Shown here in pieces: positions 18,002 to 38,200 of a stretch of DNA of 64,000 nucleotides. How positions within the stretch are numbered: the stretch's first letter is position 1; the number at the start of each line of letters is the position of its first letter. The translations under genes were made by a program, and so were the position numbers. Location of the stretch: IMG/VR virus record IMGVR_UViG_3300032524_000070. One strand, 5' to 3'. The notes beneath the pieces were generated by a model. That model did no database searches. It was not told the DNA's origin and worked only from the letters and a program-made list of their open reading frames with translations. The stretch is from a virus.

Positions 18002-18003
18002 CC

Positions 18004-18034
18004 CGGTATCCAGCCTATGAGGCACGGAAGATGA
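18004..18034 (+). promoter_or_regulatory. putative late promoter motif, copy 3
   Basis: cggt-atcca-gcctat-N11-gatga. Confidence 0.6.
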
Positions 18035-18062
18035 GCAACCGGCCTGACCCCGGGAGGAGCTG

Positions 18063-18263
18063 ATGCCCCAGTACAGCGAGCAGATGAAGCGACAGCGGCA
18101 ACAGGTCAAGATGGGCCTGGCGTTGCAGTACGCCGATGCTCCCCTTCGAGCAAAGAAGGGCACCTTCATCTTCGACATGAAGGACGCGGAGACGGGCGAG
18201 CAGCTCGCCTACTTTGAGAAGGACACCGAGAACCAGTCCAAGGAGCACGTTCGGGATGCGTAA
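18063..18263 (+). CDS. orphaned N-terminal fragment of the tail protein gene at 18936 (66 aa)
   Basis: GGAGGAG RBS; KGTFIFDMKDAETGEQLA matches KGEFFFKMTDARSGRVLA of the 18936 ORF at 10/18 positions; its stop overlaps the endonuclease start. Confidence 0.65.
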   Translation: MPQYSEQMKRQRQQVKMGLALQYADAPLRAKKGTFIFDMKDAETGEQLAYFEKDTENQSKEHVRDA

Positions 18264-18939
18264 GGGCACCACCCACACGGAAGCGACGAAGGCAAGGCTC
18301 CGTGAAGCTCGAAGCCATCAGGTGCCGTGGAACAAGGGCGTCAAGACGGGGCCTCGACCGGCAGCCGTGCGTCAGAGGATCTCCGAGTCATTGATGGGGC
18401 ACCCGGATCATGTCCCCGTTGAGAAGAAGGCCACATGGAGACGGGCAATCTCGGAGTCCAAGAAGGGCCACGTTCAGTCAGATGATACTCGGCGCAAGCG
18501 GAGTGCCTCCATGTCCCGGGCATACGCGGAGGGTCGGAAAACCGTCAAGCCAGCTTCCGGCTACGGGAAGGGTCGTCACTACGAGTCGCCGTTCCAGGGG
18601 TCAGTGTGGTTGCGGTCCACATCAGAAGTGCAGCGAGCCGAGGAATTGGATGCTGAGGGCGTGGTCTGGTTCTACGAGGTCCGTCGCTTCCCTGTTCGCA
18701 TGGGGGATCGGGTTACGACCTACAGGCCGGATTTCTGGATCATCCCTGGTCTTGTTCGGGAAGACGTGCCCATCGATTACAGAGGTTTCCTCTTGTCGCT
18801 TCCTGTTGAACGGGTTCGTGTCGAGGACGTGAAGGGGTGGTGGAAGCCCTCGCACAAGACCTTCCCGAAGATTCAGGCATTTCAGCAGCAGTACCCCGAC
18901 ATCCGATTCGAGATCGTCATTCGAGAGGGTCAGCGATGA
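18256..18939 (+). CDS. free-standing homing-type endonuclease, NUMOD3 repeats plus PD-(D/E)xK domain
   Basis: HTEATKARL, PWNKG, ISESLMG, ISESKKG (NUMOD3-like); RSTSE, WFYE, YRPDF, EDVKGWW; ATG at 18256 after AAGGAG; lower GC3 than flanking genes. Confidence 0.8.
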   Translation: MRKGTTHTEATKARLREARSHQVPWNKGVKTGPRPAAVRQRISESLMGHPDHVPVEKKATWRRAISESKKGHVQSDDTRRKRSASMSRAYAEGRKTVKPASGYGKGRHYESPFQGSVWLRSTSEVQRAEELDAEGVVWFYEVRRFPVRMGDRVTTYRPDFWIIPGLVREDVPIDYRGFLLSLPVERVRVEDVKGWWKPSHKTFPKIQAFQQQYPDIRFEIVIREGQR

Positions 18940-19493
18940 TCACGACCAAAGCCAAGGGCGAGTTCTTCTTCAAGATGACGGACGCCCGATCCGGGCGTGT
19001 TCTCGCTGAGTGGAATCAGCCCCAGGTCATCACCCTGGACGCAGGGATCGCCGGGGCTGCCCACTTCAAGGGTGACCTGACCGGCGGGTTGAAGATGCTG
19101 GCCATCGGGACGGGTGCGACGGGCAACCTGCTCTCGCCGGACGCCCCGCAGAACACGCAGCGCAAGCTCAACAACGAGATCCAGCGCAAGGCGTTTTCGT
19201 CCACGACGTACCGCACGGCAGAGGGTGTGGCGGTCAGCTATCGCACGCACATCGTTGACTTCACCACGACCTACGGCGAGGCCGAGGCGGTGGGTGCTCT
19301 CAACGAGATGGGGCTGCTGGTCCCGGCATCGATCAACCCTGCGACGCTGAACCCCATCAACAACGGGCCGTCCAACTACGACGCGAGCATCGACGTGGCC
19401 GGGCTGGACTTGATGGTCAACTACCTGACCTTTTCGGTAGTATCGAAACCAAGTACAGCGGTTTTGGCTATCACATGGAGGCTTACGCACTGA
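18936..19493 (+). CDS. tail/baseplate-fibre attachment protein (tail-collar-like)
   Basis: AIGTG...LNNEIQRK...VDFTTTYGEAEAVGALNEMGL pattern; ATGA overlap with the endonuclease stop. Confidence 0.6.
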   Translation: MITTKAKGEFFFKMTDARSGRVLAEWNQPQVITLDAGIAGAAHFKGDLTGGLKMLAIGTGATGNLLSPDAPQNTQRKLNNEIQRKAFSSTTYRTAEGVAVSYRTHIVDFTTTYGEAEAVGALNEMGLLVPASINPATLNPINNGPSNYDASIDVAGLDLMVNYLTFSVVSKPSTAVLAITWRLTH

Positions 19494-19567
19494 TGCTGGC
19501 CCCCCACTCGCCACACCCCAACCCAGAGAGTAAGGTAGTTGACCAGAACTACTTGAAGGGGGTTGGT

Positions 19568-20515
19568 ATGCCTGGTGTGGTCAAGTGCCGGGTCTGCGGC
19601 ATCGAGCGACGACGGCTGGGGGCTCACATCAAGGCGTCCCACGGGATGACAGTGCCCGAGTACCAGTTGCAGTTTCCCGATGCAGCCGTGGAGGTCATCG
19701 GTAGTCGTGTGCGGTCTGCGGAATGTCGGGCCAAGCAGGCGACGGCTGCCAAGCGGCGGTGGGCTGACCCAGATGAGCGGGCTGCACAATCGGCTCGACT
19801 CAAAGATGCGGCCCCGTGGAAGGGCAAGAATCTCTCAGAGAGCCACAAGGCGGCGATCTCGGTGGGTGGATCTGGTGTCGCACATGACCTCACGGACGAG
19901 CGGCGAGCAGAACTAGCCGCCCGAGGTCGGCGGCTTCTGGTCAACAGCCGACAGCACCCGGACTATCGGCAGAAGCTCTCCGAGGGGCAAAGGCGGCGGC
20001 ATGAGCGGGAGATCTGCGGTCTTGCGGACCCTGCCAATCAGCGCAAGAGCTACAACACCAGACTCAAGAACGGCACGCTCATCCCTCCCGGTGGGGGTCG
20101 CGGTATCACGGGCTTCCGCAAGGGTCTGTCGCACTACTGCCGAAGCACACTGGAGGCGAACTTCGCCCGCATCCTCGTTCACGAGAGGGTGCCCTACGAG
20201 TATGAGCCGAGGGTATTCATGCTGCCTGGTGGGGGCCGGTGGACACCGGATTTCCGGCTGCTCGCACCTCTCGGGGGTATCCCTGCTGGCTGGGTGGAAA
20301 TGAAGGGCTGGCGACAGAAGGATGGCACCTTGCCGGGTGAAGCCTCTGCCAAGATCGCCGCCTTTGAGCAGATGACGGGGGAGGCTGTGTACGTCCTGGT
20401 GCAGAGCAGCCCTGAGTGGAAGGCCCTCACTGCGAAGTACGCTGGGCTGGTTCCGTGGGAGAGGCCCCGTTTCAACCTCAAGACTCATCCGGCCCTGTTC
20501 GGGAGGAAAGCCTGA
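19568..20515 (+). CDS. free-standing homing-type endonuclease (C2H2 Zn finger, NUMOD3-like, PD-(D/E)xK)
   Basis: CRVC...HIKASH, PWKGKNLSESHK, RSTLEANFARIL, YEYEP, WTPDF, VEMKGW; start taken at ATG 19568 after GAAGGGGG. Confidence 0.8.
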   Translation: MPGVVKCRVCGIERRRLGAHIKASHGMTVPEYQLQFPDAAVEVIGSRVRSAECRAKQATAAKRRWADPDERAAQSARLKDAAPWKGKNLSESHKAAISVGGSGVAHDLTDERRAELAARGRRLLVNSRQHPDYRQKLSEGQRRRHEREICGLADPANQRKSYNTRLKNGTLIPPGGGRGITGFRKGLSHYCRSTLEANFARILVHERVPYEYEPRVFMLPGGGRWTPDFRLLAPLGGIPAGWVEMKGWRQKDGTLPGEASAKIAAFEQMTGEAVYVLVQSSPEWKALTAKYAGLVPWERPRFNLKTHPALFGRKA

Positions 20516-23500
20516 TGGCGGTCAAGGACCACACCAACCACTTCGACGCGCTTGAGTCGGCCCCTACCCCGGCCGACTTGCGAGTGCCGAACACCGTGTC
20601 CCGCTCGCCGGGGACTGGTGAGCGTGCCTTCATTGGTGTCGTCGCTGAGTCCGGCAAGCCGGTCCTCGACGCAGAGCTGAACCTGCACCAGAACGCTCAG
20701 TGGATGGAGGACTACCTCCTTCGTCGCTGGCAGACCCCTTCGGGCTGGCTCCGGGGGCGCACACACCTCGATGCCTACTGCGACTGGAGCCTGGAGACGG
20801 CTCCTGCTGGCGTCACCGACGATTCTGGCCTCGTAGACCCCGGTGGCTCCGCAGGTTCGGCGGGCTCTGGTGGCTCTGGTGGCTCTGGTGGATCAGCGGG
20901 TGGTGGTGGCCCCCTCATCGCCGACGACGGGACGCTCCTGGACTCCGTGATTCTTCCGAGGCTCGAAGCCACGGTGGCCGGGCATCCGGTGGTGGTCGAG
21001 TACACGAACACGAAGACGCCGGGCTACAACCTCATCGGCCTGACACCCGCGAAGATCTACGACGGCACGAACGCGACGGTGAAGCGCACCGACATGATCT
21101 TCCTGGAGGTCTGGCGGTCACTGGTGGCCCCCTCGCCCTTCGCCACGGGTCAGATCCAGATCGTTGCCTTCGCTTCCCTGATCGCTGGTGACCTTGTTCG
21201 CATCAACGGCATCGCCCTGACGGCTGTGGCGGGGGCTCCGGGCCTCAACCAGTTCCAGATCGGTGCGAGCAACGACATCACGGCCACGAACATCGCCACG
21301 GCGATCAACCTGGTCGCCAACTCGTTCGACCTCATCGTGACGGCCCGTCCGACGACCAACGTGGTCCTCCTGACGGCTGACCTGCCCGGAGCTGGCGATG
21401 TCATCAGCCAGACGGGCAACTTCATCACCCTGTCCGTAACGGTCGCCACCGTGGGGGCTATGGTCGTCTCCGGGGCCACGCTGGTCGGGGGTGCTGACCG
21501 CCCGAACAAGCCGAGCAGCGAGCAGGACAAGATCTACCGGCACGGCAACGTGCTGTCCCCCAGCCCCGTCTGGCTCGACGACGAGATGGTCGATCCCATC
21601 ATCGCGGTCGAGAGCAGCCAGCGCATCCAGCTCCACTACCGCATCCGCACGACGAGCGACGCCGAGGCCCTCAACTACAAGAAGCACCCGGACGGCTTCT
21701 CGAACCTCATCGCAGGTGGTGGCCCGAACGACGCGGCCATCTTCGCGCAGGGCAACCGTGCCGTCCCGGTGTGGGCTGGCAACGGCGTGGACACCGTGTC
21801 CTACCCCTTCGTCCCCGCCGACAAGACGAGCACATGGCTCCAGTCCTCTGCCGTGTCCTTCGGCTGGGAAGACGACGGCCTGTACGTCGCGGGTGACGGG
21901 TCGGCAACCTCCGCAGCGAACCTCGGGGCCATCGACGGTTTCGTGTTCGCCATCCCCATCGCGTTCGTTCACCGGCACAACAACGTCAGCGACATGCTGG
22001 CGGGCTTCAAGGGCTTCGACCCGGAGAGCAACGCCAACGGTGCCCCGATGTACGCCCACACCGGCTACGTCGGCCCGCTGGGCAACATCCCGGCTGGTGA
22101 CTCCGACCGCCCGGACGGCGAGTTCGCCAACGTCATCACGCAGCAGAACATCCTGGACCTCCGCAGGCACGTCGTCTTCCCCGGAGTGGACCTCGCGGCA
22201 GAGCTGAAGTACCAGGTCCAGAGCCTCATGGATGGCAACCTGCGAACCTGGTCGGTGGACACCGCCAGCAAGCAGACCCTCGGTGGTGACTCCGGGGATG
22301 CCTCGACCCGTTACCTCATCTGCAACGAGGTCGGTCGCACGGAGTCCGAAGGTGCGACGCCCCCTCTGGCGGGTGAGAACACCGAGCGGGGCGAGCTGAT
22401 CCGCAGCTACGACCACATCTGCCGGAGGTTTGCTGACCAGCCCATCGTGGAACGGGTCGTCGTCGCCTTCTGGCCGGGTGACCGCAACGGAGCCCCCGTG
22501 GCTCCGGGTACGGACAACCCCGGCAAGTACATCAGCCCCAAGGCTGGTGGTGGCACGATGACGGCCCTCTGGTACGAGGGCGACACGCTCAACCTCGACC
22601 TGGAGTTCCTCAACTCCACGACCCTCGGCGGCATGTTCGACAGCCGCCCGGGTGCGGGCACGGGTGGCGGCGGCTCCGGCACGGGCATCCCGGACCAGAA
22701 CTTCCTTCAGTTCGCTCCGGCGGGCACGGTCATCACCGATGTCCTCAACGCCTGGCACGACGACGGCCACTACGACCAGGTGACCAACCAGAACGTGCAG
22801 CTCGGCATCATCAAGGGCCTGGGCACGACGCACCTCCAGGTCACCATCGACGCCAACGACACGGTGACCACAGAGGGGCAGCCCATCGCCGGACCGAACA
22901 TCGAGCACAAGATGGTCGGCTCGGACGTGGCTGGTGCTCCCCCGGTGGCTCCTGCGAACTTCGGTTCGCCTCGACGCATCTTCCTGGAGGTCGAGATCAC
23001 CTACCCCATCGGGGTGGGGACGACCGACACCCCGGACCACGAGGTCATCCCGGACCTGGGCGTCTACACGGACAGCGTGCTGACGGTCACTGGCCCCGGC
23101 CCGCTCATCGAGAACGACGTGCTCCAGCGGCCCGCCGACTTCGAGAACCTGCTGGCAGCCCGCTACCGCAGTGGCTTCCGCGAGGTGCAGTCGGAGTACG
23201 TGGCGAACGACACCATCAACCACGCGGCTCCTCTGGCTGGAACGGCCATCGGGGTGGCGACGGTCGAGCAGATCGTCTCGCTGGACCGCAGCACCTTGCG
23301 GTTCCCCCGCCGGGTGTGGAGCAACGACAATGGAACCGGGCTGTACGTCAACGACGTACCCGGAGCGGCAGTCCAGACGGTCGATGTCCCCAACTCGGAG
23401 CTGGGTTCTTCCAGCCGCCTCATCCAGCTCGCCGGGGGCGGGGGCATTCCCCTCTCGGGAGTGGGTCACACGCTCTGCGACATCCGGTACTTCGCACAGG

Positions 23501-24276
23501 ACCCGATCCCGAACTACGGGGTCAACGGCGGCGGCTACCAGATTGCCTACTACTTCCGCTCCAACTCGCCGCAGACGGCGGGCACCAAGGAGGGCGACAT
23601 CACCTCCACGGGCGACGGCACCTTGCCGACGACCTTGGTAGTGGAGCCTCTGCTCGCCAGCCCTAGCGTCTGGACCGGGCAGGTCGGGATGGGTGGTCAC
23701 GAGCTGGCCTTCCCCTACGAGTCGCCTCTGGACCAGATCCCCATCAACGATGGGACGACGGTTCCGGCGGGCTCGCAGCAGATCAGCGGGACGACGGAGG
23801 AGTGGTACTTCGCAGCGACGGCAGAGGTCGCGCTCGACCACTTCGACGCGGATACCGGGTTGCTCAACCTGCACGCCTTCGTGCAGCAGGACATCCAGAA
23901 CGACCAGGAGTTCGGCGGACCGGACAACGACAAGAAGCCCCGGAAGGATGCGGAGTTCAGGGCCTACTACCCGTTCGCGGATGACGAGTCCTACCGCCCC
24001 ACCGTGTTCGCGCAGCCCTTGTTCGGGGCGACGCGGCACAAGTCGTTCACCCCGTTCCTGGCAAGGGCGACGGCTGACGTGCCCGGAGTCGCTGGTGGGC
24101 TCCTGTTCCGCAAGTCGGAGCTGCTGCTCATCGTCCTCTCGCGGTTCGCTGAGCTGGACGACGAGAACAACGTGCGGTTCATCGACCCGCAGAGCAGCAA
24201 CAGGACGCTGGCGGCGGTCTACCGGACCCGCAACCTTCTTCTGACCGTGGGAGATCGCACATGCCTCGGAAGCTGA
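20515..24276 (+). CDS. large baseplate/tail protein, DUF6519/DUF4815-like N-terminus; paralog of 35214
   Basis: VSRS...ESGKPVLDAELN...PSGWL, RTDMIFLEVW, RIQLHYRIR, AIDGFVFAIPI, RPDG...ILDLRR, all shared with the 35214 ORF. Confidence 0.65.
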   Translation: MAVKDHTNHFDALESAPTPADLRVPNTVSRSPGTGERAFIGVVAESGKPVLDAELNLHQNAQWMEDYLLRRWQTPSGWLRGRTHLDAYCDWSLETAPAGVTDDSGLVDPGGSAGSAGSGGSGGSGGSAGGGGPLIADDGTLLDSVILPRLEATVAGHPVVVEYTNTKTPGYNLIGLTPAKIYDGTNATVKRTDMIFLEVWRSLVAPSPFATGQIQIVAFASLIAGDLVRINGIALTAVAGAPGLNQFQIGASNDITATNIATAINLVANSFDLIVTARPTTNVVLLTADLPGAGDVISQTGNFITLSVTVATVGAMVVSGATLVGGADRPNKPSSEQDKIYRHGNVLSPSPVWLDDEMVDPIIAVESSQRIQLHYRIRTTSDAEALNYKKHPDGFSNLIAGGGPNDAAIFAQGNRAVPVWAGNGVDTVSYPFVPADKTSTWLQSSAVSFGWEDDGLYVAGDGSATSAANLGAIDGFVFAIPIAFVHRHNNVSDMLAGFKGFDPESNANGAPMYAHTGYVGPLGNIPAGDSDRPDGEFANVITQQNILDLRRHVVFPGVDLAAELKYQVQSLMDGNLRTWSVDTASKQTLGGDSGDASTRYLICNEVGRTESEGATPPLAGENTERGELIRSYDHICRRFADQPIVERVVVAFWPGDRNGAPVAPGTDNPGKYISPKAGGGTMTALWYEGDTLNLDLEFLNSTTLGGMFDSRPGAGTGGGGSGTGIPDQNFLQFAPAGTVITDVLNAWHDDGHYDQVTNQNVQLGIIKGLGTTHLQVTIDANDTVTTEGQPIAGPNIEHKMVGSDVAGAPPVAPANFGSPRRIFLEVEITYPIGVGTTDTPDHEVIPDLGVYTDSVLTVTGPGPLIENDVLQRPADFENLLAARYRSGFREVQSEYVANDTINHAAPLAGTAIGVATVEQIVSLDRSTLRFPRRVWSNDNGTGLYVNDVPGAAVQTVDVPNSELGSSSRLIQLAGGGGIPLSGVGHTLCDIRYFAQDPIPNYGVNGGGYQIAYYFRSNSPQTAGTKEGDITSTGDGTLPTTLVVEPLLASPSVWTGQVGMGGHELAFPYESPLDQIPINDGTTVPAGSQQISGTTEEWYFAATAEVALDHFDADTGLLNLHAFVQQDIQNDQEFGGPDNDKKPRKDAEFRAYYPFADDESYRPTVFAQPLFGATRHKSFTPFLARATADVPGVAGGLLFRKSELLLIVLSRFAELDDENNVRFIDPQSSNRTLAAVYRTRNLLLTVGDRTCLGS

Positions 24277-27956: not shown

Positions 27957-27958
27957 TG

Positions 27959-27973
27959 CGGTGGGGAGCCTAT
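27959..27973 (+). promoter_or_regulatory. putative late promoter motif, copy 4
   Basis: cggt-gggga-gcctat in a 48-bp intergenic gap. Confidence 0.6.
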
Positions 27974-28004
27974 AGCCACGCAGAGGCAGACGGAGTGAAG
28001 TCTG

Positions 28005-31000: not shown

Positions 31001-33605
31001 CGACAAGCGGCTGGAAGTCACGGTCGGCAACCCTTCGGGGCATGGCCAGCCGGGAGACGCGCACTTCAACGAGCTGGCCGATGCCGTCGCGTTCGTGACG
31101 GAGACCTACCGGGCCTTCCAGGTCTCGGGCGCACCGGGCGAAGAGGGTCGGGCTCGCCGCATCAAGGTCATCGGGCCGACGCGGGAGGACAACGCCAAGC
31201 TCCCCATCTCGCCAGCCGGTCTCAGTGGGGTCATCATCGAGGGTGCCGCCCGGACGCCGGACGACACCGCCGCGAACCCCCTGTCGATCACCTGGGAGGG
31301 GGCAGCGGCTCCCCCGCTGTTCGACCTCTCGGATGTATCTGGCTGGACGTTCCGGGATCTGGCCTTCCGCTTCGTGGACTCGGCGGCTTCGGCGGTGGTG
31401 CCGGAACGCTGCCTGTTCATCACGAGGGATGGCCCGACTCGGAACTGCATCTTCGAGAACATCTACCTTCTCGGGAAGGCCCACGGCTTCTACTACATCG
31501 ACGACACTGCCGTCCCTGGCAGTGCCGCCTACGACAACCTGCTGTTCCGCAACTGCGCTGCCACGGAGCTGACCGACTTCGCCATCCGGGTCGAGAACAA
31601 CATCGACGCGGCCAACGCCGACGTGATGAAGGTCGAGGGCTGCGACTTCACGGTGGCCAAGGGAGCTGGCCGCGAGCTGAACGGGACGATCACCGATGGT
31701 GGCATCGTCCACGTCGGGACGACCAACGCCGAGCGGACCAGCATCCGGGACAGCAGGCTCATTGGCGGCAACGTCGGCATGTTCTCTGCTGGTGTCGGCA
31801 ACGTCATCGACGGCTGCCTCATCCAGAACACCGACCTCCCGGCGATCTGGGCGAAGTCGGACTTCTGGGAGATCAACAACAACGACATCGTGGCCGCCCA
31901 CACCGTCAAGGGCACGTCCGGGCCGTTGAACCCCGCCAAGGTGGCCCTCTACATCGACGCGGGTGGTGCTGGACAGAACGAAGTCCACGTCATCAACAAC
32001 CGGGTCGATGTCAGCGGTGGTGCAGCGGGCGACCGGGCCATCTTCAGCGACGGCAACACCTTCAACTGCATCTTCTCCGGCAACAGCGTCGATTTCGACA
32101 TCATGGCTGCGACGGCAGTTCACATCCTCGACAACGACATCGCGGTAGGCGATCTGTCGTTCGATGCCAGTTGCACCGTCCGGGGCAACGCCGTGGTCGG
32201 AGACATGATCCCCCTGGGGACCCTGGCCAACATCTCCAACAACAACGTGGCCGGTCTGCTGCTGGGCATCCTTGGGACGAACTGCCGCTACAGCAACAAC
32301 AACTTCCTGAGCAGCACCGCCACCGACCATGTGGTCGCCAACGGGAGCAGCTTCAACGGCGACTGGTTCGGGGACCAGGCATCGGCTGGTGGTCGGGTCG
32401 AGCTGGCGAACGACTGCACCTTCATCGGGTGCCGCTTCTCTGATGCCGTGGATGGTGTGACGAAGTTGCCTTCCCGGAACCGTTTCGAGGCGTGCGTGTT
32501 CGATATGTACGCCACCGGCTTCCAGGTAAGGGGTGGCTCAAACTCCTTCCTTGGCAACGCCTTCAACGACCGGACGGCGGGTCCAGTCCTCAATCTTGAG
32601 ATCAACATCAAGGGTGAGGGGACGGTCTTCTCGGACAACAAGTGCTCCATCGGCACCTTGTCGCTGGAGCCCGAAGCGGGTGAGAACCAGCGGTTCGTGG
32701 TGACCGGCAACCAGTTCTTCGTCCCTGACATCAACGTGGGCGGCATGTGGATTCAGGGCGGCTACAGCGTGGTCAGCGACAACGTGGTGGTCGGCTGGGA
32801 GAGCGAGAGCGCCGACCCCGACAAGTTCTCCATCTTTGTCGAGGGGAACCAGAACGTCGTCAACGGCAATCTCTGTACCAAGAGCCTTCAGGTGAAGGGT
32901 GCCCAGTGTACGGCGGTGGGGAACCGGGTCTTGATCAACGCCGTCGTCGCGTTGACCGATGGCAAGTTCGACTCGAACCACGTCCAGGGCGATGTGCTCA
33001 TCGGTGGTGGGGCAGCGGCCAGCATCCAGTTCAACAGCAACCGGATCGCGGGCGACGTGGACTACCTGACGCCCGCGACCGACTCCCTGATCTCCAGTTC
33101 GTTCAACGACAACCGCATCGTCGGTACGACCACCCTGGCCGTAGCGGCTGGTGTGTCCATCGTGGACAGCACGATCTCGGGCAACAGGTTCGGCAACGAC
33201 TTCGCGGCCACCCAGAGCGACGACTGCACCTTCGTAGGGAACCGCTGCACCGGCAGCGTGAATCTCACCAACTCGGTGGGGCTGGTCTGCAACAACAACC
33301 GCATCGGCAAGGGTGGGGCGACGAAGAACCTCATCCTCACCACCTGTGCCGACTACATCTGCAACGGCAACTACGTCGAGGGCAGCATCCTGGTGGACGC
33401 CAACACTAGCGGGACAGGCGTGGGCATCCTGGTCGGCAACCGAGCGGCGGTCATCTCGTCGGACAACGCTCCGCTCGCAGGTCAGGTTGCTGTCGGCAAC
33501 CGGACGACCGTCAACGGGGTCACCCCGTCGCTCTTCAACACGAACACGGGCGTCGTCGCCGACATCGGCGTTACCGTGCCCTCGAACTTGAACACCGAGG
33601 TCTAG
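28005..33605 (+). CDS. tail spike-like protein with long C-terminal right-handed beta-helix
   Basis: C-terminal ~800 aa rich in Asn-ladder repeats (IxNN, FxGN, VxGNR); possible depolymerase or receptor-binding protein. Confidence 0.7.
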   Translation: MADYPLTKLEKALARRASSSASKPAWQELMERYDTVPSSKSVQAPDAITGFSGSWAASYDLGGSLRDMTVGESPAQIQRRTNLLGQPGMGEINFRPYDHGTNRHGKYGPSLLGHPISFQVVGPTAKTRGLVHQWFITEAGNVDTLNLDVGADINSKSITPSPLPAGADTIGEIYGFTAIPEGGLYIVVTMTGSEGVVTDNGAFAPGTDGGLGDGFIGEDDGGAPIGAGARLAVIPRTESVKYEIFRVTAMTPTTLVLDNAKRLSTYFDYNIGANAPVIRAITIIRPAATRLVAVPGSGSVQGGEQTFAFVPPVTALNADWQPVYASATGTGLFDPWTSAKNLDTNPAWGFAADAKDYGQAVVLPIPAPVNRGQGRLQGINGEAPQQLPLGRFRLILDAASYFGSTLDIGKIIRIYDIRRVLDGDWETIASAPATHRGRPLLDRMLGYFEIFNTGNADQGVGANNFYDLKFVSQVDPDTGVPFFGAGTNFVMATGSGAGQEVRFQWTVHEPISTLWTDRYLHPTRLDSARLKNLIDPRWVKPTLKGRELTDMAGHQAMPDRAIFDTSSSSAGVAGGNANPGNLLDLGFRVVLFPAKVIGAPTTSLVPDFDNPIDANEVVLDPTKLDENQFIEVDYSAGLVHLSHPPVVGSQLVPLAGILTADDNPRGEAVFFAACVPFSREPGQMGVNPRLTAGRSLDRAGSFCGLDSPEPVDVYGGRIFWPGDNQTINSGPQRTIQLNVELGPIDLPLTGFVDVLIGDHNPAGDPLFSNSDEERLCTFGYSTVNYNDVGHGGRTTLEGTFGGGDQTGPASYVVVPATTPVTVVLRKNIVLPNTLDGRTGTDYQFDTTYGYAKRPATLRFTHGDLTPEHDGSVSISTKDPRTDAHEALFSELFSSWCISGGINSTVLPSVGATLHFSEAVVLIQGIRTVMPEQDLVLGVVAGPPASRYVYIDGSTPACPVWASTTVLPLPTDNDVLMASYTHAGGNIQTLIDLRDPLVDIDKRLEVTVGNPSGHGQPGDAHFNELADAVAFVTETYRAFQVSGAPGEEGRARRIKVIGPTREDNAKLPISPAGLSGVIIEGAARTPDDTAANPLSITWEGAAAPPLFDLSDVSGWTFRDLAFRFVDSAASAVVPERCLFITRDGPTRNCIFENIYLLGKAHGFYYIDDTAVPGSAAYDNLLFRNCAATELTDFAIRVENNIDAANADVMKVEGCDFTVAKGAGRELNGTITDGGIVHVGTTNAERTSIRDSRLIGGNVGMFSAGVGNVIDGCLIQNTDLPAIWAKSDFWEINNNDIVAAHTVKGTSGPLNPAKVALYIDAGGAGQNEVHVINNRVDVSGGAAGDRAIFSDGNTFNCIFSGNSVDFDIMAATAVHILDNDIAVGDLSFDASCTVRGNAVVGDMIPLGTLANISNNNVAGLLLGILGTNCRYSNNNFLSSTATDHVVANGSSFNGDWFGDQASAGGRVELANDCTFIGCRFSDAVDGVTKLPSRNRFEACVFDMYATGFQVRGGSNSFLGNAFNDRTAGPVLNLEINIKGEGTVFSDNKCSIGTLSLEPEAGENQRFVVTGNQFFVPDINVGGMWIQGGYSVVSDNVVVGWESESADPDKFSIFVEGNQNVVNGNLCTKSLQVKGAQCTAVGNRVLINAVVALTDGKFDSNHVQGDVLIGGGAAASIQFNSNRIAGDVDYLTPATDSLISSSFNDNRIVGTTTLAVAAGVSIVDSTISGNRFGNDFAATQSDDCTFVGNRCTGSVNLTNSVGLVCNNNRIGKGGATKNLILTTCADYICNGNYVEGSILVDANTSGTGVGILVGNRAAVISSDNAPLAGQVAVGNRTTVNGVTPSLFNTNTGVVADIGVTVPSNLNTEV

Positions 33606-33609
33606 CCAG

Positions 33610-34443
33610 ATGAGAATCCTCGTTGACCTGCGAAGCCACCTGTCGGATGCACCGGAGATCATCCAGGTGCAGCGGGTTCCCGTGGAAGGCTCCGCTGGTG
33701 GCGAGACCATCAACGGGAAGTACGCCCTCCCGGTCCCGTTGAACATGGAGTTCCCCATCGACGGGACGAACTACATCCTCGACGGGGCGGGGAACATCGA
33801 CGGCGGCGACGTGGTGAGCATGGGCTACGCCCACCTCCTGGCTCTCTACCTGCCCTTCGAGAACATCTACTTCAACCCGCTGCTGACCAGCGACCATGTA
33901 GGCGAGCTGGTCCTCGACCAGTCCTTCCACTTCACCGACCGCAGCGTCTCGCCCCCCGTCCAGTTCTTCCCCCGGTTCCAGACGGGCCGCGAGGAGGGCG
34001 TCGCCGACGACGGTCAGATGCCCACGCACACGGCGATGATGCCCGCGAACGACACGGTGACCCCGGAGCGGCCAGGGCTCATCATCACGGAGCCCATTGA
34101 CATCGGGCCGTTCACGCTCGACTGCGACGACGTGCCAGTGGGTGCCGACGAGTTCATGGTCTTCTGGAAGCTCTACAACTTCACGGTCGGCCAGGATGTC
34201 GCGGCTGATGCAGGACTGCTGGCGGGCACGAACGCCCCGGCGGCACGGCTGCTGGAGGAGACGCCCCAGGAGCCGGACGACCTCTCGGTCTTCATCAGCA
34301 CCGACAATGGCGCGAACTGGTGTCAAGTCGGCCTGTTGGAGCCCATCGCCTTCTGCGACAAGACGACATCGGTGCGACTGGCGTTCATGAACGACTCGCT
34401 CACGAACAAGCTCTTCCTCGCCAGCTTCGCGCTGCTGTTCTGA
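33610..34443 (+). CDS. hypothetical structural protein
   Basis: 277 aa, co-oriented, high GC3; VFISTDNGANW Asp-box-like motif. Confidence 0.6.
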   Translation: MRILVDLRSHLSDAPEIIQVQRVPVEGSAGGETINGKYALPVPLNMEFPIDGTNYILDGAGNIDGGDVVSMGYAHLLALYLPFENIYFNPLLTSDHVGELVLDQSFHFTDRSVSPPVQFFPRFQTGREEGVADDGQMPTHTAMMPANDTVTPERPGLIITEPIDIGPFTLDCDDVPVGADEFMVFWKLYNFTVGQDVAADAGLLAGTNAPAARLLEETPQEPDDLSVFISTDNGANWCQVGLLEPIAFCDKTTSVRLAFMNDSLTNKLFLASFALLF

Positions 34444-34453
34444 AGGTAGGAAA

Positions 34454-35224
34454 ATGGCACTCGACCACGGACAACTACGCCGCATCTCCGCCGCCGCTGA
34501 CAAGCGGCGGTCGGTGGAGCGTCGTGCCGCCGTGGGTCGGATGAAGGAGAAGCCCTGTGCAGACTGCGAGACGGCCTATCCTTTCTTCGTCATGGACTTC
34601 GACCACCGGGACCCGAGCACCAAGGATTTCACCATCAGCAGGGTGGTGACCCGGCTGGCATGGGACAAGCTCGTGGCCGAGATCGAGAAGTGCGATGTCG
34701 TATGCGTCAACTGCCACCGTTTGCGAACGTGGGCACCGCCCACGAACCGGTCGGCCCGGCAGCGACTTCTGATTGACCTCAAGGCGACCCCCTGTGCGGA
34801 TTGCAAGGGGGAGTTCCACTACTGCCAGATGGACTTCGACCACGTTCGGGGTGAAAAGCTCGGTCAGGTGCCCAAGAGGGGCACCGCACAGGCCATCAAG
34901 GCTGAGGCCGCCAAGTGCGATGTGGTCTGCGCGAATTGCCATCGAGTGCGTTCACAGGCCGCCGCCAAGGGGTCTGCCCGGTTGGTTCCTGCGGACATCG
35001 ACATGGTGTGGAAGCAGCGCAGTAGCAAGACTCCGCAGACGAAGCTGCGGAAGACCACACGGCCTTGGCACAGCCTCGCCGGAATGATGCCGGATGGTGC
35101 TCTTGCAGCCCGCCACGGGATCACCCGGAACGCCATCAGGAACTACCGGAAAAAGATGAAGATCGAACCGTTCACACGCCAGGGCGTGCGACCCGATCTC
35201 AAGGAGGTGCGCTGTGGCGCTTGA
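34454..35224 (+). CDS. tandem double-HNH endonuclease with C-terminal HTH-like segment
   Basis: Two CADC...MDFDH...KCDVVCxNCHR units; C-terminal DGALAARHGITRNAIRNYRKK; begins with the host gene's MALDHG. Confidence 0.85.
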   Translation: MALDHGQLRRISAAADKRRSVERRAAVGRMKEKPCADCETAYPFFVMDFDHRDPSTKDFTISRVVTRLAWDKLVAEIEKCDVVCVNCHRLRTWAPPTNRSARQRLLIDLKATPCADCKGEFHYCQMDFDHVRGEKLGQVPKRGTAQAIKAEAAKCDVVCANCHRVRSQAAAKGSARLVPADIDMVWKQRSSKTPQTKLRKTTRPWHSLAGMMPDGALAARHGITRNAIRNYRKKMKIEPFTRQGVRPDLKEVRCGA

Positions 35225-38200
35225 TCATGGAACTGGCGTCTCTCGGACCTTGAGCCCTCTCGACAGGGCTTACGCTTCGGTCATCTGGCAGAAGGGCAAG
35301 CCGCCCCTCGACGCAGAGCTGAACCTCATGTCCTCGCTGGACCAGGAGCGGCTGCGGGAGTACGTCGCGGGCCTGATGCCCTCCGGGTTCTTGATGGACC
35401 CGACCCGCTCCGAGTTCGACTTCCGGTTCGACCCCAAGTGGGTCAACCACTTCCACCTCGGCGTGCCTCGGTCTGCCACGGGCAGCCTCGACGCAGACGA
35501 GACGCAGCCGGTCGTGTGGGCCAACGTCAACGGCTGGATGGTCCCGGTCGCTGGAACGGACATCACGGGCACGGCTGATGTCCACAACGTCGTCAAGCTC
35601 TACCCCGCCCCCGGCTCCGATACCCGCGTGGACTTCGTGTTCCTGGAGGTCTGGAACTCCCTGGTCCAGCCGAATCCCTCGACGCTGAACAAGCCCACGG
35701 CTTCGACCGTCTGGAAGTACGGCAACGTCAAGCACGGCGGCACGAACATCACGGACGACCTCGAAGATCCGACCATCGGCTTCGAGACCAGCAAGCGAGT
35801 ACAGGTCCAGTACCGCATCCGCGTCTACGGACAGGGCCTCGGCGGTGGGGCCAGCGTGAACCTCGCTGTCCACCCGGACGGCTTCGGTGACCCGAACATC
35901 CTCGGTCGGGGGGCCAACGCGAGTGCCCCCGTCGCCGGGATGCAGTGGGCCAACATGCGAGAGCAGCTCGGTGACCCCTCCCTGTGGCGAGCAGGCGACG
36001 GCGACCCGAACAACGCTCTGGGCACCATCGACGGCTACACCTACGCCATCCCGATCTGCGCGGTCTTCCGCCGGAGCCGGGAGACCTACGTCGCCATCAA
36101 GACCAGCGGCAACCCCACGCAGAACGGGGCGACCCTCCGCACGCCGGGCGTCTACCTGCTGGTCGATCCCCTGACGGGTGCCGTGCCCCTGCTCCAGGCG
36201 TCGCTCGGGGCGGCTCTGGGGCCGGACGACGGCAAGCTGGCCCCCTTCACCATCGCGGTCACGAACATCAACGGCTCCGGGCTGGAAGACACGGCCCACA
36301 CGCTGTCGAGCATCTACCTCCAGATCGAGGATGAGATCGTCGGCATCTCGGCGGTGGACCTGGTGGGCAACACCATCACCATCCCGGCAGGTGGCCGTGG
36401 GCGGTGGGGTACGGCTGCTGTGGGGCACGCGACGGCGACCCCCATCAACCAGTTCAACACCCGCCCGGACGGCCTGTACGCCGACCAGGTGGCCTCTCAG
36501 GACGTGCTGGACCTCCGCAGGGCGGTGAACCCGGGCGACTGGGACTACAACCGTCTGCTGGCCCACAACGTCGCAGCTCTGGCCAAGGGCACCCTCCGTA
36601 CCGCGTGGAAGGAGAGCAACCCCGGTGACACAGAGGGTCCGGTCGTCCATGAAGTCGTGGACATGTACGCCGGGGACGAGACGCACCCGAACCACACCGA
36701 CGCGGCGGACGGCTCTGATGGCATCCGCACGGTCTGGTCGGATGGGGCGACCATCCAGTCGGACGTGACGCTCCTCCTCAAGCACGACGCCACCCGCGAC
36801 GCGGACGGCATGGTCGGCTTCACGAACACCGGCTTCGATGCCCTGGTCGAGTGGGATGTGGGGGCGAGCTTCAACCCCATCGGTTTCTTGAACACGGGCG
36901 GCCTGGCGACGGGCTGGTACAACGGCTCGTCGGTCCACCTGTTCATCGGCGGGACCACGGGCGAGCTGGGTGCAAGGGCGACCTTCCGTGCCGCCAACGT
37001 GCGGGACGTGCGCTTCGTCACACCGGGCGAATACTGGAAGACGGGTTACCCGGTCGTGGACCCGACCACGGGCAACCAGCACCCGGTATCCCTCCGGTTC
37101 CTGGGCGAGAAGAGCACGGTGGCACCGCCGTCTGCTCTGGCCGCAGCCGACAAGCTCATCGCCCCCGGCCCGCAGTACCCGTGGCGGGAGGGGTCGTTCG
37201 AGCGACCCTTCATCGTGCTGGGTGGCCTGCTCCACAGCAACCTGCGGATCACTGCTCTCGATGTCAGCAACCTGACTTCGGCGGTCGATGTCTACGGCAC
37301 GACCCGCTACTACCTCGACCTGACGGGCAAGGGCTTCGACTTCGACGCGGCTGGTGGGTTCAACAACGCCAGCGGTGGCGTCTTCCCGAACGACCCCGCG
37401 CAGGTGGCGACTCCGTTCCTGCGGGGTGAGCGCACCTTCTTCGGGATGCTGACCGACGACGGTCGGGACCAGACGGGGGCCTCCTCTGAGGTCTACCTGA
37501 TGACCTTCGGTGACCCCACGGGCCGCAACAACAACGGTGCCTTCCGGGTCATCGGTGCCGGGACGGTGGGCTACACCAACGTCCCTGGCATCAACGCCGG
37601 GACGCTGGTGCTGGAGCCGCTTTCGGGGGACTTCACCGGCTGGTCGGCCACGGGCTCGGGCAACGAGATCACGGTCGATTTCCGGTCGCAGTACCACAAC
37701 GCGGACGACATCTCGACCTACGCAGCTCGCATCGCCGACCTGGCCATCGTGCTGACCGACATCGGTGGCGAGTCTGGTGACGGAACGCCGTGGGACCTGG
37801 CGAACGTCGGGACCAACGCTCTGGATCAGGCGGGCGGCTTCTACTACGCCCCGAGCAAGATGGTCCTCTCGACCACGCTGCTCTACCACCCCGGTCGGTC
37901 AGCGGCGACGCGAGTGCCGGACGAGTTCGTGCGGTTCGCCATGCGGGGCGGTTCGGAAGAAACGCTCGGGACGTACCTGCGACGGTCGCCGTCGAGCATC
38001 GACACGACCTTCTCGGCCATCGGGACGGCAACAGACGAGACGTACTGGCCGACCATCCACGTCGGCACGTGGAACAGGCTCTCCGGCCTCGGCTGGCACG
38101 CCCCCCTCGCACCGGCCTACGGCGGCTCCGTGGTGGGCTTCACAGAGCAGGACCGCGAAGCTGAGTGCTTCGTGGACCGTGGCAGCAAGACGGCCATCTT

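What the first reader, a model, noticed from the sequence alone, without database searches (positions are those of the whole stretch)
18063..35231. Recurrent recode-and-replace strategy across three endonucleases of two unrelated folds in one tail module
Seen: three endonucleases (two PD-(D/E)xK, one double HNH) each sit at a gene end that is duplicated and/or recoded. Each endonuclease stop overlaps the downstream start, preserving coupling of the operon. Two of them sit directly upstream of the paralogous DUF6519-like genes (20515, 35214). Inference: a convergent class of intron-less, intein-less homing elements that colonise essential late operons by rewriting gene termini. Free-standing homing endonucleases are well known (T4 seg/mob); whether N-terminal duplication is a described general rule I cannot verify.
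Basis: inference. Interest (0 to 1): 0.75.

Follow-up and report, generated by a model that had tools for sequence, protein, structure and literature searches.

The report
Homing nucleases that replace gene ends
Three selfish nuclease genes sit inside or against conserved virion-region genes of an uncultured ~142-kb phage, and each brings a differently spelled substitute for the piece of host gene it displaces, so the genes stay expressible without splicing; this is known from fungal mitochondria and yeast but I found no description of it in phages.

Summary
A relative about 90% identical (IMG/VR contig 3300025660_000003) lacks all three nucleases, which fixes each junction to the base.

- **E1** (NUMOD3 + PD-(D/E)xK, 18256-18939) is an 802-bp insert inside gene B. 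It splits B into a 66-aa stub and a 185-aa body. The insert carries a new start and a diverged copy of a 23-25-codon beta-hairpin.
- **E2** (zinc finger + PD-(D/E)xK, 19493-20515) replaces the last 21 codons of B with a near-fully synonymous, A/T-ending version. It also supplies a new ribosome site for gene C.
- **E3** (double HNH, 34454-35224) is a 760-bp insert after codon 6 of gene G. It uses G's own start and gives G a recoded start.

The same layouts recur with the same nuclease families in other metagenomic phages. Decayed forms exist: two E1 deletions that keep the split, and E2 copies without catalytic residues.

Cleavage, self-immunity and homing are inferred, not shown. The closest known systems are fungal mitochondrial mobile endonuclease ORFs and yeast WHO elements; for E1, phage Aeh1 mobE/nrdA. 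My paper searches found no phage description.

The DUF6519 and "tail module" labels are unsupported. This scan has noted the same layout before on other DNA, in at least 21 genomes and once elsewhere in this genome.

The parts
18063..18263 (+). N-terminal stub of split gene B (66 aa). Codons 1-54 (18063-18224) are native; the 12-codon tail and stop come from the E1 cassette.
   Evidence: It is near-identical in DNA to the 5' end of the intact 210-aa B gene of the nuclease-free relative L002, up to codon 54. A strong GGAGG ribosome site lies upstream.
18225..19026 (+). E1 cassette: an 802-bp insert replacing 4 native bases at codon 55 of B.
   Evidence: The boundaries come from the alignment with L002. 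The same layout occurs in L017, L034/L050, L036, L037, L077 and L102.
18256..18939 (+). E1 homing endonuclease (227 aa): NUMOD3 motif plus a PD-(D/E)xK-type nuclease domain with intact PDF and E-D-V-K motifs.
   Evidence: Family hits: Pfam NUMOD3 4.3e-07, phrog_945 endonuclease 7e-4, PF05367 0.028. GC3 is 0.70 against 0.83-0.90 in neighbouring genes.
18936..19493 (+). C-terminal body of split gene B (185 aa). 18936-19026 is cassette-borne: a new ATG, 6 linker codons, and a substitute beta-hairpin ending in Q30 (19023-19025).
   Evidence: B matches phrog_5417. The hairpin copy is closer to other cassette copies (14-19 of 23 residues) than to its own lineage's native hairpin (10 of 23). Q replaces an N that is invariant in 69 intact alleles. 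AlphaFold places strands at residues 32-41 and 47-55 of intact B, the only confident part of the model.
19433..20513 (+). E2 cassette: a substitution tract that replaces the last 21 codons and stop of B plus the 13-nt B-C spacer.
   Evidence: No relic of the native end is present.
19428..19493 (+). Recoded 3' end of B. 18 of 21 residues are kept and 14 of those codons are changed; GC3 is 0.48 against 0.92 for the rest of the gene.
   Evidence: The Arg codon after Trp is AGR in 12 of 16 E2+ alleles against 14 of 58 E2- alleles.
19493..20515 (+). E2 homing endonuclease: Ros-type Cys2His2 finger, helical linker, and a PD-(D/E)xK domain with intact PDF and E-M-K motifs. The likely start is the ATG overlapping B's TGA. 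An internal ATG with its own ribosome site lies at 19568.
   Evidence: PHROG hits are. Homologs lie between B and C in 16 distinct alleles. A stop-overlapping ATG or GTG is seen in most E2+ alleles. For the fold, VIA Z is 5.9-6.1 to TnsA, Bax1 and I-Bth0305I, and Z 5.0 to the Ros finger.
19414..19545 (+). Inverted repeat (arms 19414-19438 and 19521-19545) bracketing the recoded patch and B's stop. The 3' arm lies in the E2 leader.
   Evidence: It is the top inverted repeat in the region. The leader arm is conserved to the base in four other E2 lineages. RNAalifold chooses this stem plus a small hairpin over the internal ribosome site, but with little true covariation.
20515..24276 (+). Gene C (1253 aa), downstream of E2. 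Its ribosome site (GGGAGG) is supplied by the E2 cassette.
   Evidence: Its N-terminal part is paralogous to G.
33610..34443 (+). Gene F (277 aa), upstream neighbour of the E3 site.
   Evidence: It is 91% identical to the relative's F. The 10-nt F-G spacer is unchanged.
34454..34471 (+). Native start codon and first 6 codons of G (MALDHG), now the start of E3.
   Evidence: It is 18/18 identical to the G start of nuclease-free L016, with the same upstream ribosome site.
34472..35231 (+). E3 cassette: a 760-bp insert after codon 6 of G.
   Evidence: It is absent from L016, L104 and L105. It is present at the same site in L020-L022.
34454..35224 (+). E3 homing endonuclease (256 aa) with two HNH modules.
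   Evidence: phrog_3106 gives 3.9e-44 with two stretches. The family has 2719 relatives. The closest relatives begin with G-like N-termini.
35214..35234 (+). Cassette-borne replacement start of G: a GTG start and codons 2-7 with synonymous changes, preceded by AAGGAGG inside E3's 3' end.
   Evidence: The replacement in L021 shares the GTG start and the same third-base choices at several codons.
35214..41462 (+). Gene G (2082 aa), host of E3.

Best explanation
E1, E2 and E3 are three site-specific homing endonuclease cassettes. They live in the coding ends of conserved late genes without any splicing.

Each cassette consists of a nuclease ORF plus a sequence-diverged substitute for the host-gene segment it interrupts or displaces, plus a ribosome site or an overlapping start for the next gene.

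- **E1** lands at codon 55 of gene B, at the end of a beta-hairpin. It carries a new start and a second hairpin, so the downstream fragment is a structurally complete body. The old N-terminus with its hairpin stays upstream as a 66-aa stub.
- **E2** overwrites the last 21 codons of B with an almost entirely synonymous version and re-supplies C's ribosome site.
- **E3** lands after codon 6 of G and is translated from G's own ribosome site and start. It then hands G a recoded start.

Inferred mechanism: in a mixed infection the nuclease cuts the naive allele at or near the junction. Repair from the cassette-bearing genome copies the nuclease together with the substitute segment. The altered spelling (N55 to Q for E1, synonymous changes for E2 and E3) removes the recognition site from the carrier. 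Where there is a duplication, it also removes the direct-repeat homology that would allow clean excision.

Shown here: the anatomy, the exact junctions, co-inheritance of each substitute with its nuclease, sporadic distribution, and decay products. Inferred: cleavage sites, immunity and homing itself.
For: 1. A nuclease-free allele is available at each site in a ~90% relative, with near-identical flanks. Further E3-free alleles appear.
2. The recoded patch at B's 3' end ranks 1 of 7693 windows.
3. The E1 architecture (stub, nuclease, body with duplicated hairpin) is conserved in at least 6 other lineages with E1 identity of 51-54%.
4. All 8 cassette-borne hairpins carry Q where 69 distinct intact alleles carry N. 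Cassette hairpins resemble each other more than they resemble the local native one.
5. The E3 layout recurs in L020-L022, with a 65%-identical nuclease, the same GTG start and similar third-base choices. The N-termini of P0002-P0009 look like G starts.
6. In E2+ alleles the last 21 codons of B have GC3 lowered by 0.22 on average, against 0.00 in 60 E2- alleles (Mann-Whitney p = 5.7e-6). In seven hand-picked pairings of an E2+ allele with an E2- allele the difference points the same way. AGR Arg codons are enriched, p = 3e-4.
7. Life-cycle signs are present. Catalytic motifs are intact here but lost in the L040/L042/L078 and L034 E2 copies. E1 is deleted in L024 and L055 with the split and duplication retained.
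8. The nuclease ORFs have lower GC3 than neighbouring genes.
9. E2 identity does not track host divergence. L043 has E2 at 71% with host gene A at 33%; L038 has E2 at 65% with A at 56%.
10. Rfam finds no intron RNA, and Pfam finds no intein domain.
Against: - No biochemical evidence exists for cutting, target sites or immunity. The phage is uncultured.
- The association tests are not corrected for shared ancestry.
- Part of the 'recoded' B end also occurs in a nuclease-free allele, L003. Some recoded states of G's start (GAT, ACT) occur in nuclease-free L104. The substitutes are therefore circulating alleles, not unique constructs.
- E1's substitute differs at many residues, not only synonymously, as expected of a foreign donor flank.
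- E2 leaves no relic, so it is also explicable as classical co-conversion of a flank.
- HNH inserts upstream of C in other phages show no obvious duplication.
Confidence: 0.78

Rival explanations
1. This is ordinary intronless homing with passive co-conversion. The altered segments are simply flanks of a diverged donor genome dragged in during repair. Nothing selects for recoding, and nothing functions as immunity or as a block to excision.
For: L003, which has no nuclease, shares many of the variant codons at B's 3' end. E1's hairpin copy has many residue changes and resembles the hairpin of a distant clade. E2 leaves no relic.
Against: A diverged donor would not give 14 changed codons among 18 conserved residues, with a switch to A/T-ending codons, in a genome whose GC3 is near 0.9. 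The N-to-Q change is universal in cassettes, at a position invariant in 69 intact alleles. The replacement start of G keeps the same spelling across E3 lineages that are 65% identical.
Confidence: 0.12
2. The nucleases are domesticated phage functions, for example competition weapons against co-infecting relatives or regulators of late-operon translation. They are no longer mobile, and the altered gene ends are historical scars.
For: Several lineages keep full-length E2 ORFs although the catalytic D and K are lost. The nucleases are tightly coupled translationally to essential genes. A conserved leader element precedes E2. An intron endonuclease is reported to mediate phage competition (PMC11620839; title and abstract only, seen).
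Against: A ~90% relative lacks all three. The distribution across relatives is sporadic. Clean deletions of E1 occur. All of this argues that the nucleases are dispensable.
Confidence: 0.07
3. For E1 only: gene B was first split, with a hairpin duplication, for reasons of its own. The nuclease later settled in the gap between the two pieces. On this view L024 and L055 are the ancestral state.
For: L024 and L055 have the split and the duplication but no nuclease.
Against: The stub tails in L024 and L055 align to the left junction plus the last codons of the E1 ORF of their E1-bearing relatives, as expected of internal deletions. 69 distinct intact alleles show that unsplit is the norm. The window's stub is 98% identical to an intact relative, which points to a recent insertion.
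Confidence: 0.03

Closest known systems
Mobile endonuclease ORFs (mORFs) forming gene hybrids in fungal mitochondria: Glomus atp6, atp9, cox2 and nad3 (PMC3630166), which cites the earlier Allomyces macrogynus atp6 case
   Same: An endonuclease ORF travels with a foreign copy of the host gene's end. The inserted copy is in frame with the gene core, and the native end is left beside it. The inserted end is diverged at the DNA level but similar at the protein level, and is interpreted as horizontally acquired.
   Different: Those cases are LAGLIDADG or GIY-YIG nucleases in organelle genomes, and always at the 3' end. Here the nucleases are HNH and PD-(D/E)xK, in a phage. The modes also include a 5'-start takeover (E3) and an internal split with a duplicated structural element (E1). 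Re-expression is by translational coupling within an operon.
WHO elements at FBA1 in Torulaspora/Lachancea yeasts (PMC7282813; bioRxiv 10.64898/2026.08.13.744650)
   Same: The element is a nuclease gene plus an alternative version of part of an essential gene. It replaces that part on integration, resistant and sensitive alleles coexist, and pseudogenised nucleases accumulate. The authors describe it as a category of homing element distinct from introns and inteins.
   Different: WHO nucleases are intein-like LAGLIDADG plus zinc-finger proteins related to HO. They replace about 400 bp of a 3' half in a eukaryotic nuclear gene. Neither WHO paper mentions phages. Here the replaced pieces are only 6 to about 30 codons.
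Phage Aeh1 mobE splitting nrdA into two genes (PMC3045599)
   Same: A free-standing HNH gene inside a phage ORF creates a genes-in-pieces arrangement. Insertion-derived tails become part of the two host polypeptides. This is the nearest phage precedent for E1 and gene B.
   Different: The abstract of that paper mentions no duplicated host segment. There the tails are novel sequences needed for assembly. Here the cassette carries a second copy of a host beta-hairpin, and assembly of the two pieces is untested.
T4-type free-standing seg/mob endonucleases: intronless homing with co-conversion of flanking markers (review PMC2988022; SegB PMC2330249; mobE PMC2790892)
   Same: A free-standing nuclease sits between or against phage genes. 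It spreads by a double-strand break and gene conversion that drags in flanking sequence, and its distribution among relatives is sporadic. E2 fits this pattern best.
   Different: A term search of the review (duplicat-, polymorphism, immune, resistant) found no mention of cassette-borne duplicated or recoded gene ends. E1 and E3 are inside ORFs and restore them by supplying substitute codons.

Membership tests
Free-standing homing endonuclease genes of phages | Encodes a nuclease of a recognised homing-endonuclease family with catalytic motifs intact | tested here: met
   E3 matches PHROG HNH families at 3.9e-44 with two modules. E1 has NUMOD3 above the Pfam cut-off. E1 and E2 have the E...PD...(D/E)xK motifs, and the E2 fold has Z 5.9-6.1 to TnsA, Bax1 and I-Bth0305I (middling Z).
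Free-standing homing endonuclease genes of phages | Presence/absence polymorphism at one precise site among close relatives | tested here: met
   All three are absent from a ~90% relative with conserved flanks. They are sporadic among more than 90 related loci.
Free-standing homing endonuclease genes of phages | Not embedded in a self-splicing intron or an intein | tested here: met
   Rfam gives no match at E<=1 in 17800-35600. Pfam finds no Hint/intein domain. Each nuclease ORF ends in a stop codon.
Free-standing homing endonuclease genes of phages | Site-specific cleavage of the nuclease-free allele and unidirectional gene conversion | not testable with these tools
   This needs enzyme assays or mixed infections.
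Gene-end-replacing homing elements (fungal mORF hybrids / WHO-like), by mechanism | The element carries its own copy of the host-gene segment it displaces, in frame with the rest of the gene | tested here: met
   E1: 18936-19026. E2: 19428-19493. E3: 35214-35234.
Gene-end-replacing homing elements (fungal mORF hybrids / WHO-like), by mechanism | The displaced native segment remains next to the element as a relic | tested here: met
   Met for E1 (native hairpin in the stub) and E3 (native six codons head E3). Not met for E2, where no relic is found above shuffled background.
Gene-end-replacing homing elements (fungal mORF hybrids / WHO-like), by mechanism | The carried copy is resistant to the element's nuclease | not testable with these tools
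   Only sequence differences are shown: N55Q, and synonymous recoding.
WHO family proper (homology) | [quoted passage not shown] | tested here: not met
   The nucleases here are HNH and PD-(D/E)xK. The resemblance is an analogy of mechanism only.
Genes-in-pieces created by a homing endonuclease (Aeh1 nrdA/mobE type) | A host ORF is interrupted into two separately translated ORFs flanking the nuclease gene | tested here: met
   The order is stub 18063-18263, E1, body 18936-19493. The gene is intact in 69 other distinct alleles.
Genes-in-pieces created by a homing endonuclease (Aeh1 nrdA/mobE type) | Both fragments are required and reassemble into a functional protein | not testable with these tools
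   There is only an indirect hint. Every stub I examined, including the two nuclease-deleted alleles, is an open reading frame that still holds the native hairpin.
   No DUF6519 hit appears at E<=0.01 for the whole proteins, or at E<=10 for the N-terminal parts.

The most novel reading that the evidence does not exclude
Phages harbour a general, so far unnamed class of splicing-free homing elements. Nuclease cassettes of unrelated folds colonise the coding ends of conserved genes by carrying a resistant substitute segment. Three modes are seen: 5'-start takeover, 3'-end substitution, and an internal split with a duplicated structural element. These elements leave lasting marks on host proteins. 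Examples are permanently split genes after the nuclease is lost, and forced residue changes such as N55Q at otherwise invariant positions. This amounts to an arms race written into structural genes. In addition, the inverted copy of the target-adjacent sequence in the E2 leader may be an autoregulatory operator or an RNA switch that limits nuclease expression.
Probability: 0.5. Interest if true: 0.72.

Novelty: new variant of a known kind. Interest (0 to 1): 0.6.

Why it matters
**A third route into essential genes.** Homing endonucleases are usually said to survive in essential genes only by hiding in introns or inteins, or by sitting between genes. These cassettes show a third route in phages: bring your own replacement for the piece you destroy. 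Here it is used by two unrelated nuclease folds and in three geometries within 17 kb.

**Consequences for annotation and comparison of phage genomes:**
- Short stubs, apparent gene fragments, unusual starts and local bursts of synonymous change next to nuclease genes are expected products of this process.
- Gene splits can outlive the nuclease that caused them.
- Local dS spikes of this kind mark recombination boundaries.

**Candidate recognition sites.** The data give testable target sites for three uncharacterised site-specific nucleases.

**An arms-race signal.** An invariant Asn becomes Gln only in cassettes, which resembles the arms race reported for yeast WHO elements.

Tried and rejected
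**Searches that gave nothing useful**
- A megablast of the region against INPHARED phages gave no match.
- tblastn of B found only an unannotated 485-kb uncultured phage and Bacillus phage G gp190.
- No whole genome is held for the window.
- Pfam and PHROGs gave nothing informative for A, C, D, E, F or G. The 'tail module' and 'DUF6519' labels therefore could not be supported.
- PDB sequence searches with E2 and E3 gave no hits.

**Structure work**
- The AlphaFold model of intact B is poor (mean pLDDT 58), and Foldseek found no fold match. B's function remains unknown.
- Foldseek alone gave no E<=0.001 match for E2. Only the VIA second look gave consistent restriction-endonuclease-fold rows.

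**Checks on the cassettes**
- I looked for a relic of B's native 3' end inside the E2 cassette and found none above shuffles.
- I looked for E1, E2 or E3 paralogs elsewhere in the window and found none.
- I tested whether the long stem around the recoded patch is an RNA structure. The MFE of the window sequence alone does not use it (z = -1.8). The alignment fold does use it, but with almost no compensatory change, so this stays unresolved.
- HNH inserts upstream of C in other phages (L025, L030, L084) showed no evident duplication. The duplication is therefore not a universal rule.

**Tool and scripting problems**
The genomic contexts of E3 relatives P0002, P0004, P0005 and P0009 could not be read.
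It was redone from references, where a regular expression for the native stub hairpins found nothing.

**Literature**
- Searches for a phage description of recoded or duplicated gene ends next to homing endonucleases found none.
- This is an absence in an open-access library only.

Full report
**1. Setting**

The window is 65% G+C. It carries a tightly packed plus-strand operon of very large genes. I label them:
- A: 11582-18001
- B: see below
- C: 20515-24276
- D: 24261-27956
- E: 28005-33605
- F: 33610-34443
- G: 35214-41462

None of the large proteins has a Pfam hit. Apart from two weak unknown-function matches for C and one for G, they have no PHROG hit either. B belongs to phrog_5417, of unknown function.

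Relatives are uncultured phages. E3's exact sequence lies on four contigs, the longest 142,590 bp. No whole genome is held for the window. 'Tail module' is therefore not verified.

**2. The decisive comparison**

A search of IMG/VR with B returned 14 related loci. The closest is contig 3300025660_000003 (141,696 bp; loci L002, L016, L103). It is 84-92% identical in proteins A, C, D, F and G and 75% in E. It lacks all three nucleases, so each junction can be read to the base.

**3. E1 (18256-18939)**

*The split.* In the relative, B is one ORF of 210 codons behind a strong ribosome site. In the window:
- The first 54 codons sit in the 66-aa ORF at 18063-18263 and are almost identical in DNA to the relative.
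- An 802-bp insert follows (18225-19026).
- The native sequence then resumes.

*What the insert provides:*
- a 12-codon tail and stop for the stub;
- the E1 ORF, whose ATG overlaps that stop;
- a new ATG overlapping E1's stop (ATGA);
- six linker codons and a diverged second copy of B codons 32-56.

E1 therefore splits gene B rather than sitting at its end.

*The duplicated piece is a structural unit.* The AlphaFold model of intact B is poor overall. Its only confident part is a beta-hairpin at residues 32-55. The first 27 residues are low-confidence.

*The layout recurs.* The same arrangement (stub, E1 homolog of 51-54% identity, body with a duplicated hairpin) occurs in L017 and, from a metagenome scan, in L034/L050. 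L102 shows the nuclease and the restarted body. L036, L037 and L077, whose contigs begin inside or just before the nuclease, likewise show only the nuclease and the restarted body.

*A diagnostic substitution.* In 69 distinct intact alleles the residue at the junction is Asn. In all 8 cassette-borne copies it is Gln. Asn has only two codons, so a recognition site there cannot be recoded much without changing the residue.

*The copy travels with the cassette.* The window's cassette hairpin matches other cassette hairpins at 14-19 of 23 positions in five of the seven comparisons, and at 10 and 11 in the other two. It matches the native hairpin of its own lineage at only 10 of 23.

*Decay products.* Two loci, L024 and L055, keep the split and the duplication but have no nuclease. 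Their stub tails align to the left junction joined to the last codons of the E1 ORF, so they are internal deletions of E1. The split gene is thus viable without the nuclease, and the split outlives it.

**4. E2 (19493-20515)**

*The replaced end.* In the relative, B's stop is 13 nt from C's start. In the window a 1081-bp tract (19433-20513) replaces the last 21 codons of B, its stop and the spacer.
- 18 of the 21 residues are kept, but 14 of those codons are changed, mostly to A/T-ending codons.
- Among 7693 20-codon windows across genes A-G, compared with the relative, this is the most synonymously diverged.
- No relic of the old end is present.

*Coupling.* The tract supplies a GGGAGG ribosome site for C. 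E2's stop overlaps C's ATG.

*Distribution.* E2 homologs sit between B and C in 16 distinct alleles.
- In those alleles the last 21 codons of B have GC3 lower than the rest of the gene by 0.22 on average, against 0.00 in 60 E2-free alleles (p = 5.7e-6).
- Seven hand-picked pairings of an E2+ allele with an E2-free allele all point the same way.
- The Arg codon after the conserved Trp is AGR in 12 of 16 E2+ alleles against 14 of 58 E2-free alleles (p = 3e-4).
- These tests are not corrected for relatedness.
- Several E2-free alleles with a low-GC3 patch carry other inserts (L045, L025, L090, L092). A few carry none (L003, L029), which suggests that resistant alleles circulate without the nuclease.

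*Domains.*
- E2's C-terminal domain has the E...PD...ExK pattern.
- Its model aligns to restriction-endonuclease-fold proteins: TnsA, Bax1, the I-Bth0305I catalytic domain and VRR-NUC at Z 5.9-6.1.
- Its first 49 residues align to the Ros Cys2His2 finger at Z 5.0. These Z values are middling.
- E1 shares the nuclease domain.

*Decay.* The E2 copies in L040/L042/L078 and L034 have lost the catalytic Asp and Lys but remain full-length.

*Horizontal movement.* E2 identity does not follow host divergence, which hints at horizontal movement.

**5. E3 (34454-35224)**

*The junction.* In the relative, F's stop is followed by a 10-nt spacer and the start of G.
- In the window the same spacer, start codon and six codons (MALDHG; 18/18 bases identical) now begin E3.
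- A 760-bp insert follows (34472-35231).
- The insert ends with AAGGAGG, a GTG start and codons 2-6 of G. All of these are synonymous, and four of the five are spelled differently.
- Codon 7 also differs at its third base.
- E3's stop overlaps G's new start by 11 nt.

*Other alleles.*
- Two further nuclease-free alleles (L104, L105) have the native form.
- A lineage with a 65%-identical E3 (L020-L022) has the same layout. Its duplication is 8-9 codons long, and its replacement start shares the GTG and several of the same third-base choices.
- The closest E3 relatives start with G-like N-termini.

*Family.* E3 has two HNH modules and belongs to a large family.

**6. What it is**

These are intron-less and intein-less cassettes. 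Rfam finds nothing in 17800-35600, and Pfam finds no Hint domain. Each cassette pairs a nuclease gene with a substitute for the host segment it disrupts.

Supporting signs of a homing-element life cycle:
- The nuclease ORFs have lower GC3 (0.70-0.78) than neighbouring genes (0.83-0.90).
- They are sporadically distributed among relatives.
- They decay, as homing elements do.

The steps from cleavage to gene conversion, and the idea that the altered spelling gives self-immunity and blocks excision by repeat recombination, are inferences from this anatomy and from what is established for homing endonucleases.

**7. Comparison with what is known**

The principle has been described outside phages:
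- Fungal mitochondrial mobile endonuclease ORFs carry a foreign C-terminus of atp6, atp9, cox2 or nad3 and leave the native one downstream (PMC3630166).
- Yeast WHO elements replace the 3' part of FBA1. Their authors present them as a category distinct from introns and inteins (PMC7282813; bioRxiv 10.64898/2026.08.13.744650). Neither WHO paper mentions phages.

In phages, the nearest precedents are:
- mobE splitting nrdA of phage Aeh1, with insertion-derived tails (PMC3045599);
- co-conversion of flanks by T4 seg/mob genes (PMC2988022, PMC2330249, PMC2790892).

My searches found no phage report of cassette-borne recoded gene ends. I file this as a new variant of a known kind. What is new is the phage host, the HNH and PD-(D/E)xK nucleases, and the 5'-takeover and internal-split modes alongside 3' substitution.

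**8. Earlier notes of this scan**

The WHO lead and the fungal lead came from earlier notes. I checked both papers myself. The scan has recorded the same layout in at least 21 other genomes and once elsewhere in this genome.

**9. Side observation: the E2 leader**

A 25-nt inverted repeat (19414-19438 and 19521-19545) brackets the recoded patch and B's stop.
- Its 3' arm lies in the E2 leader and is conserved to the base in four other E2 lineages. It includes a rare GTA codon.
- Read on the other strand, it matches the B codons just upstream of the patch.
- An alignment fold selects this stem, plus a small hairpin over the internal ribosome site, but with almost no compensatory change.
- It may limit E2 translation, or it may act as a protein-binding operator. 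This is undecided.

Noticed in passing
window 19414-19438 and 19521-19545; also L038, L028, L043, L024: A conserved inverted repeat pairs the B codons just upstream of the recoded patch with a base-for-base conserved stretch in the E2 leader, which includes a rare GTA codon. A small hairpin also covers the internal ribosome site before the ATG at 19568. The repeat could be an RNA switch or an operator for the nuclease.
   Followed up: partly
L040, L042, L078 and L034 (E2 homologs between B and C): These E2 copies are full-length but have lost both the catalytic Asp and the catalytic Lys of the PD-(D/E)xK motif, in two separate lineages. They are either decaying or have been taken over for a non-catalytic role.
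   Followed up: partly
L024 251-1002 and L055 3792-4567: Gene B remains split, with a duplicated hairpin, although the E1 nuclease ORF has been deleted down to its last few codons. These are lasting footprints of a lost homing element.
   Followed up: yes
B-C junction in related loci (L025, L030, L079, L084, L045, L090, L092, L095, L066/L071): The short gap between B and C is an insertion hot spot. It holds HNH genes of the E3 family, uncharacterised inserts of 0.8-3.5 kb, and in two loci a tandem second copy of B.
   Followed up: partly
window 19488-19490: The last residue of B is His in the window, where nearly all relatives have Phe. The codon lies in the E2 cassette, just before the TGATG stop/start overlap.
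   Followed up: no
window genes A (11582-18001) and C (20515-24276): Both giant proteins contain a similar Gly/Ser-rich linker that starts with Asp-Pro-Gly-Gly-Ser-Ala. The region in C is also a local hot spot of codon divergence against the relative.
   Followed up: no
window 35214-41462 versus L016: G is 2082 aa in the window but 1894 aa in the ~90% relative. tblastn segments overlap in the C-terminal part, which suggests a difference in repeat-domain copy number.
   Followed up: no
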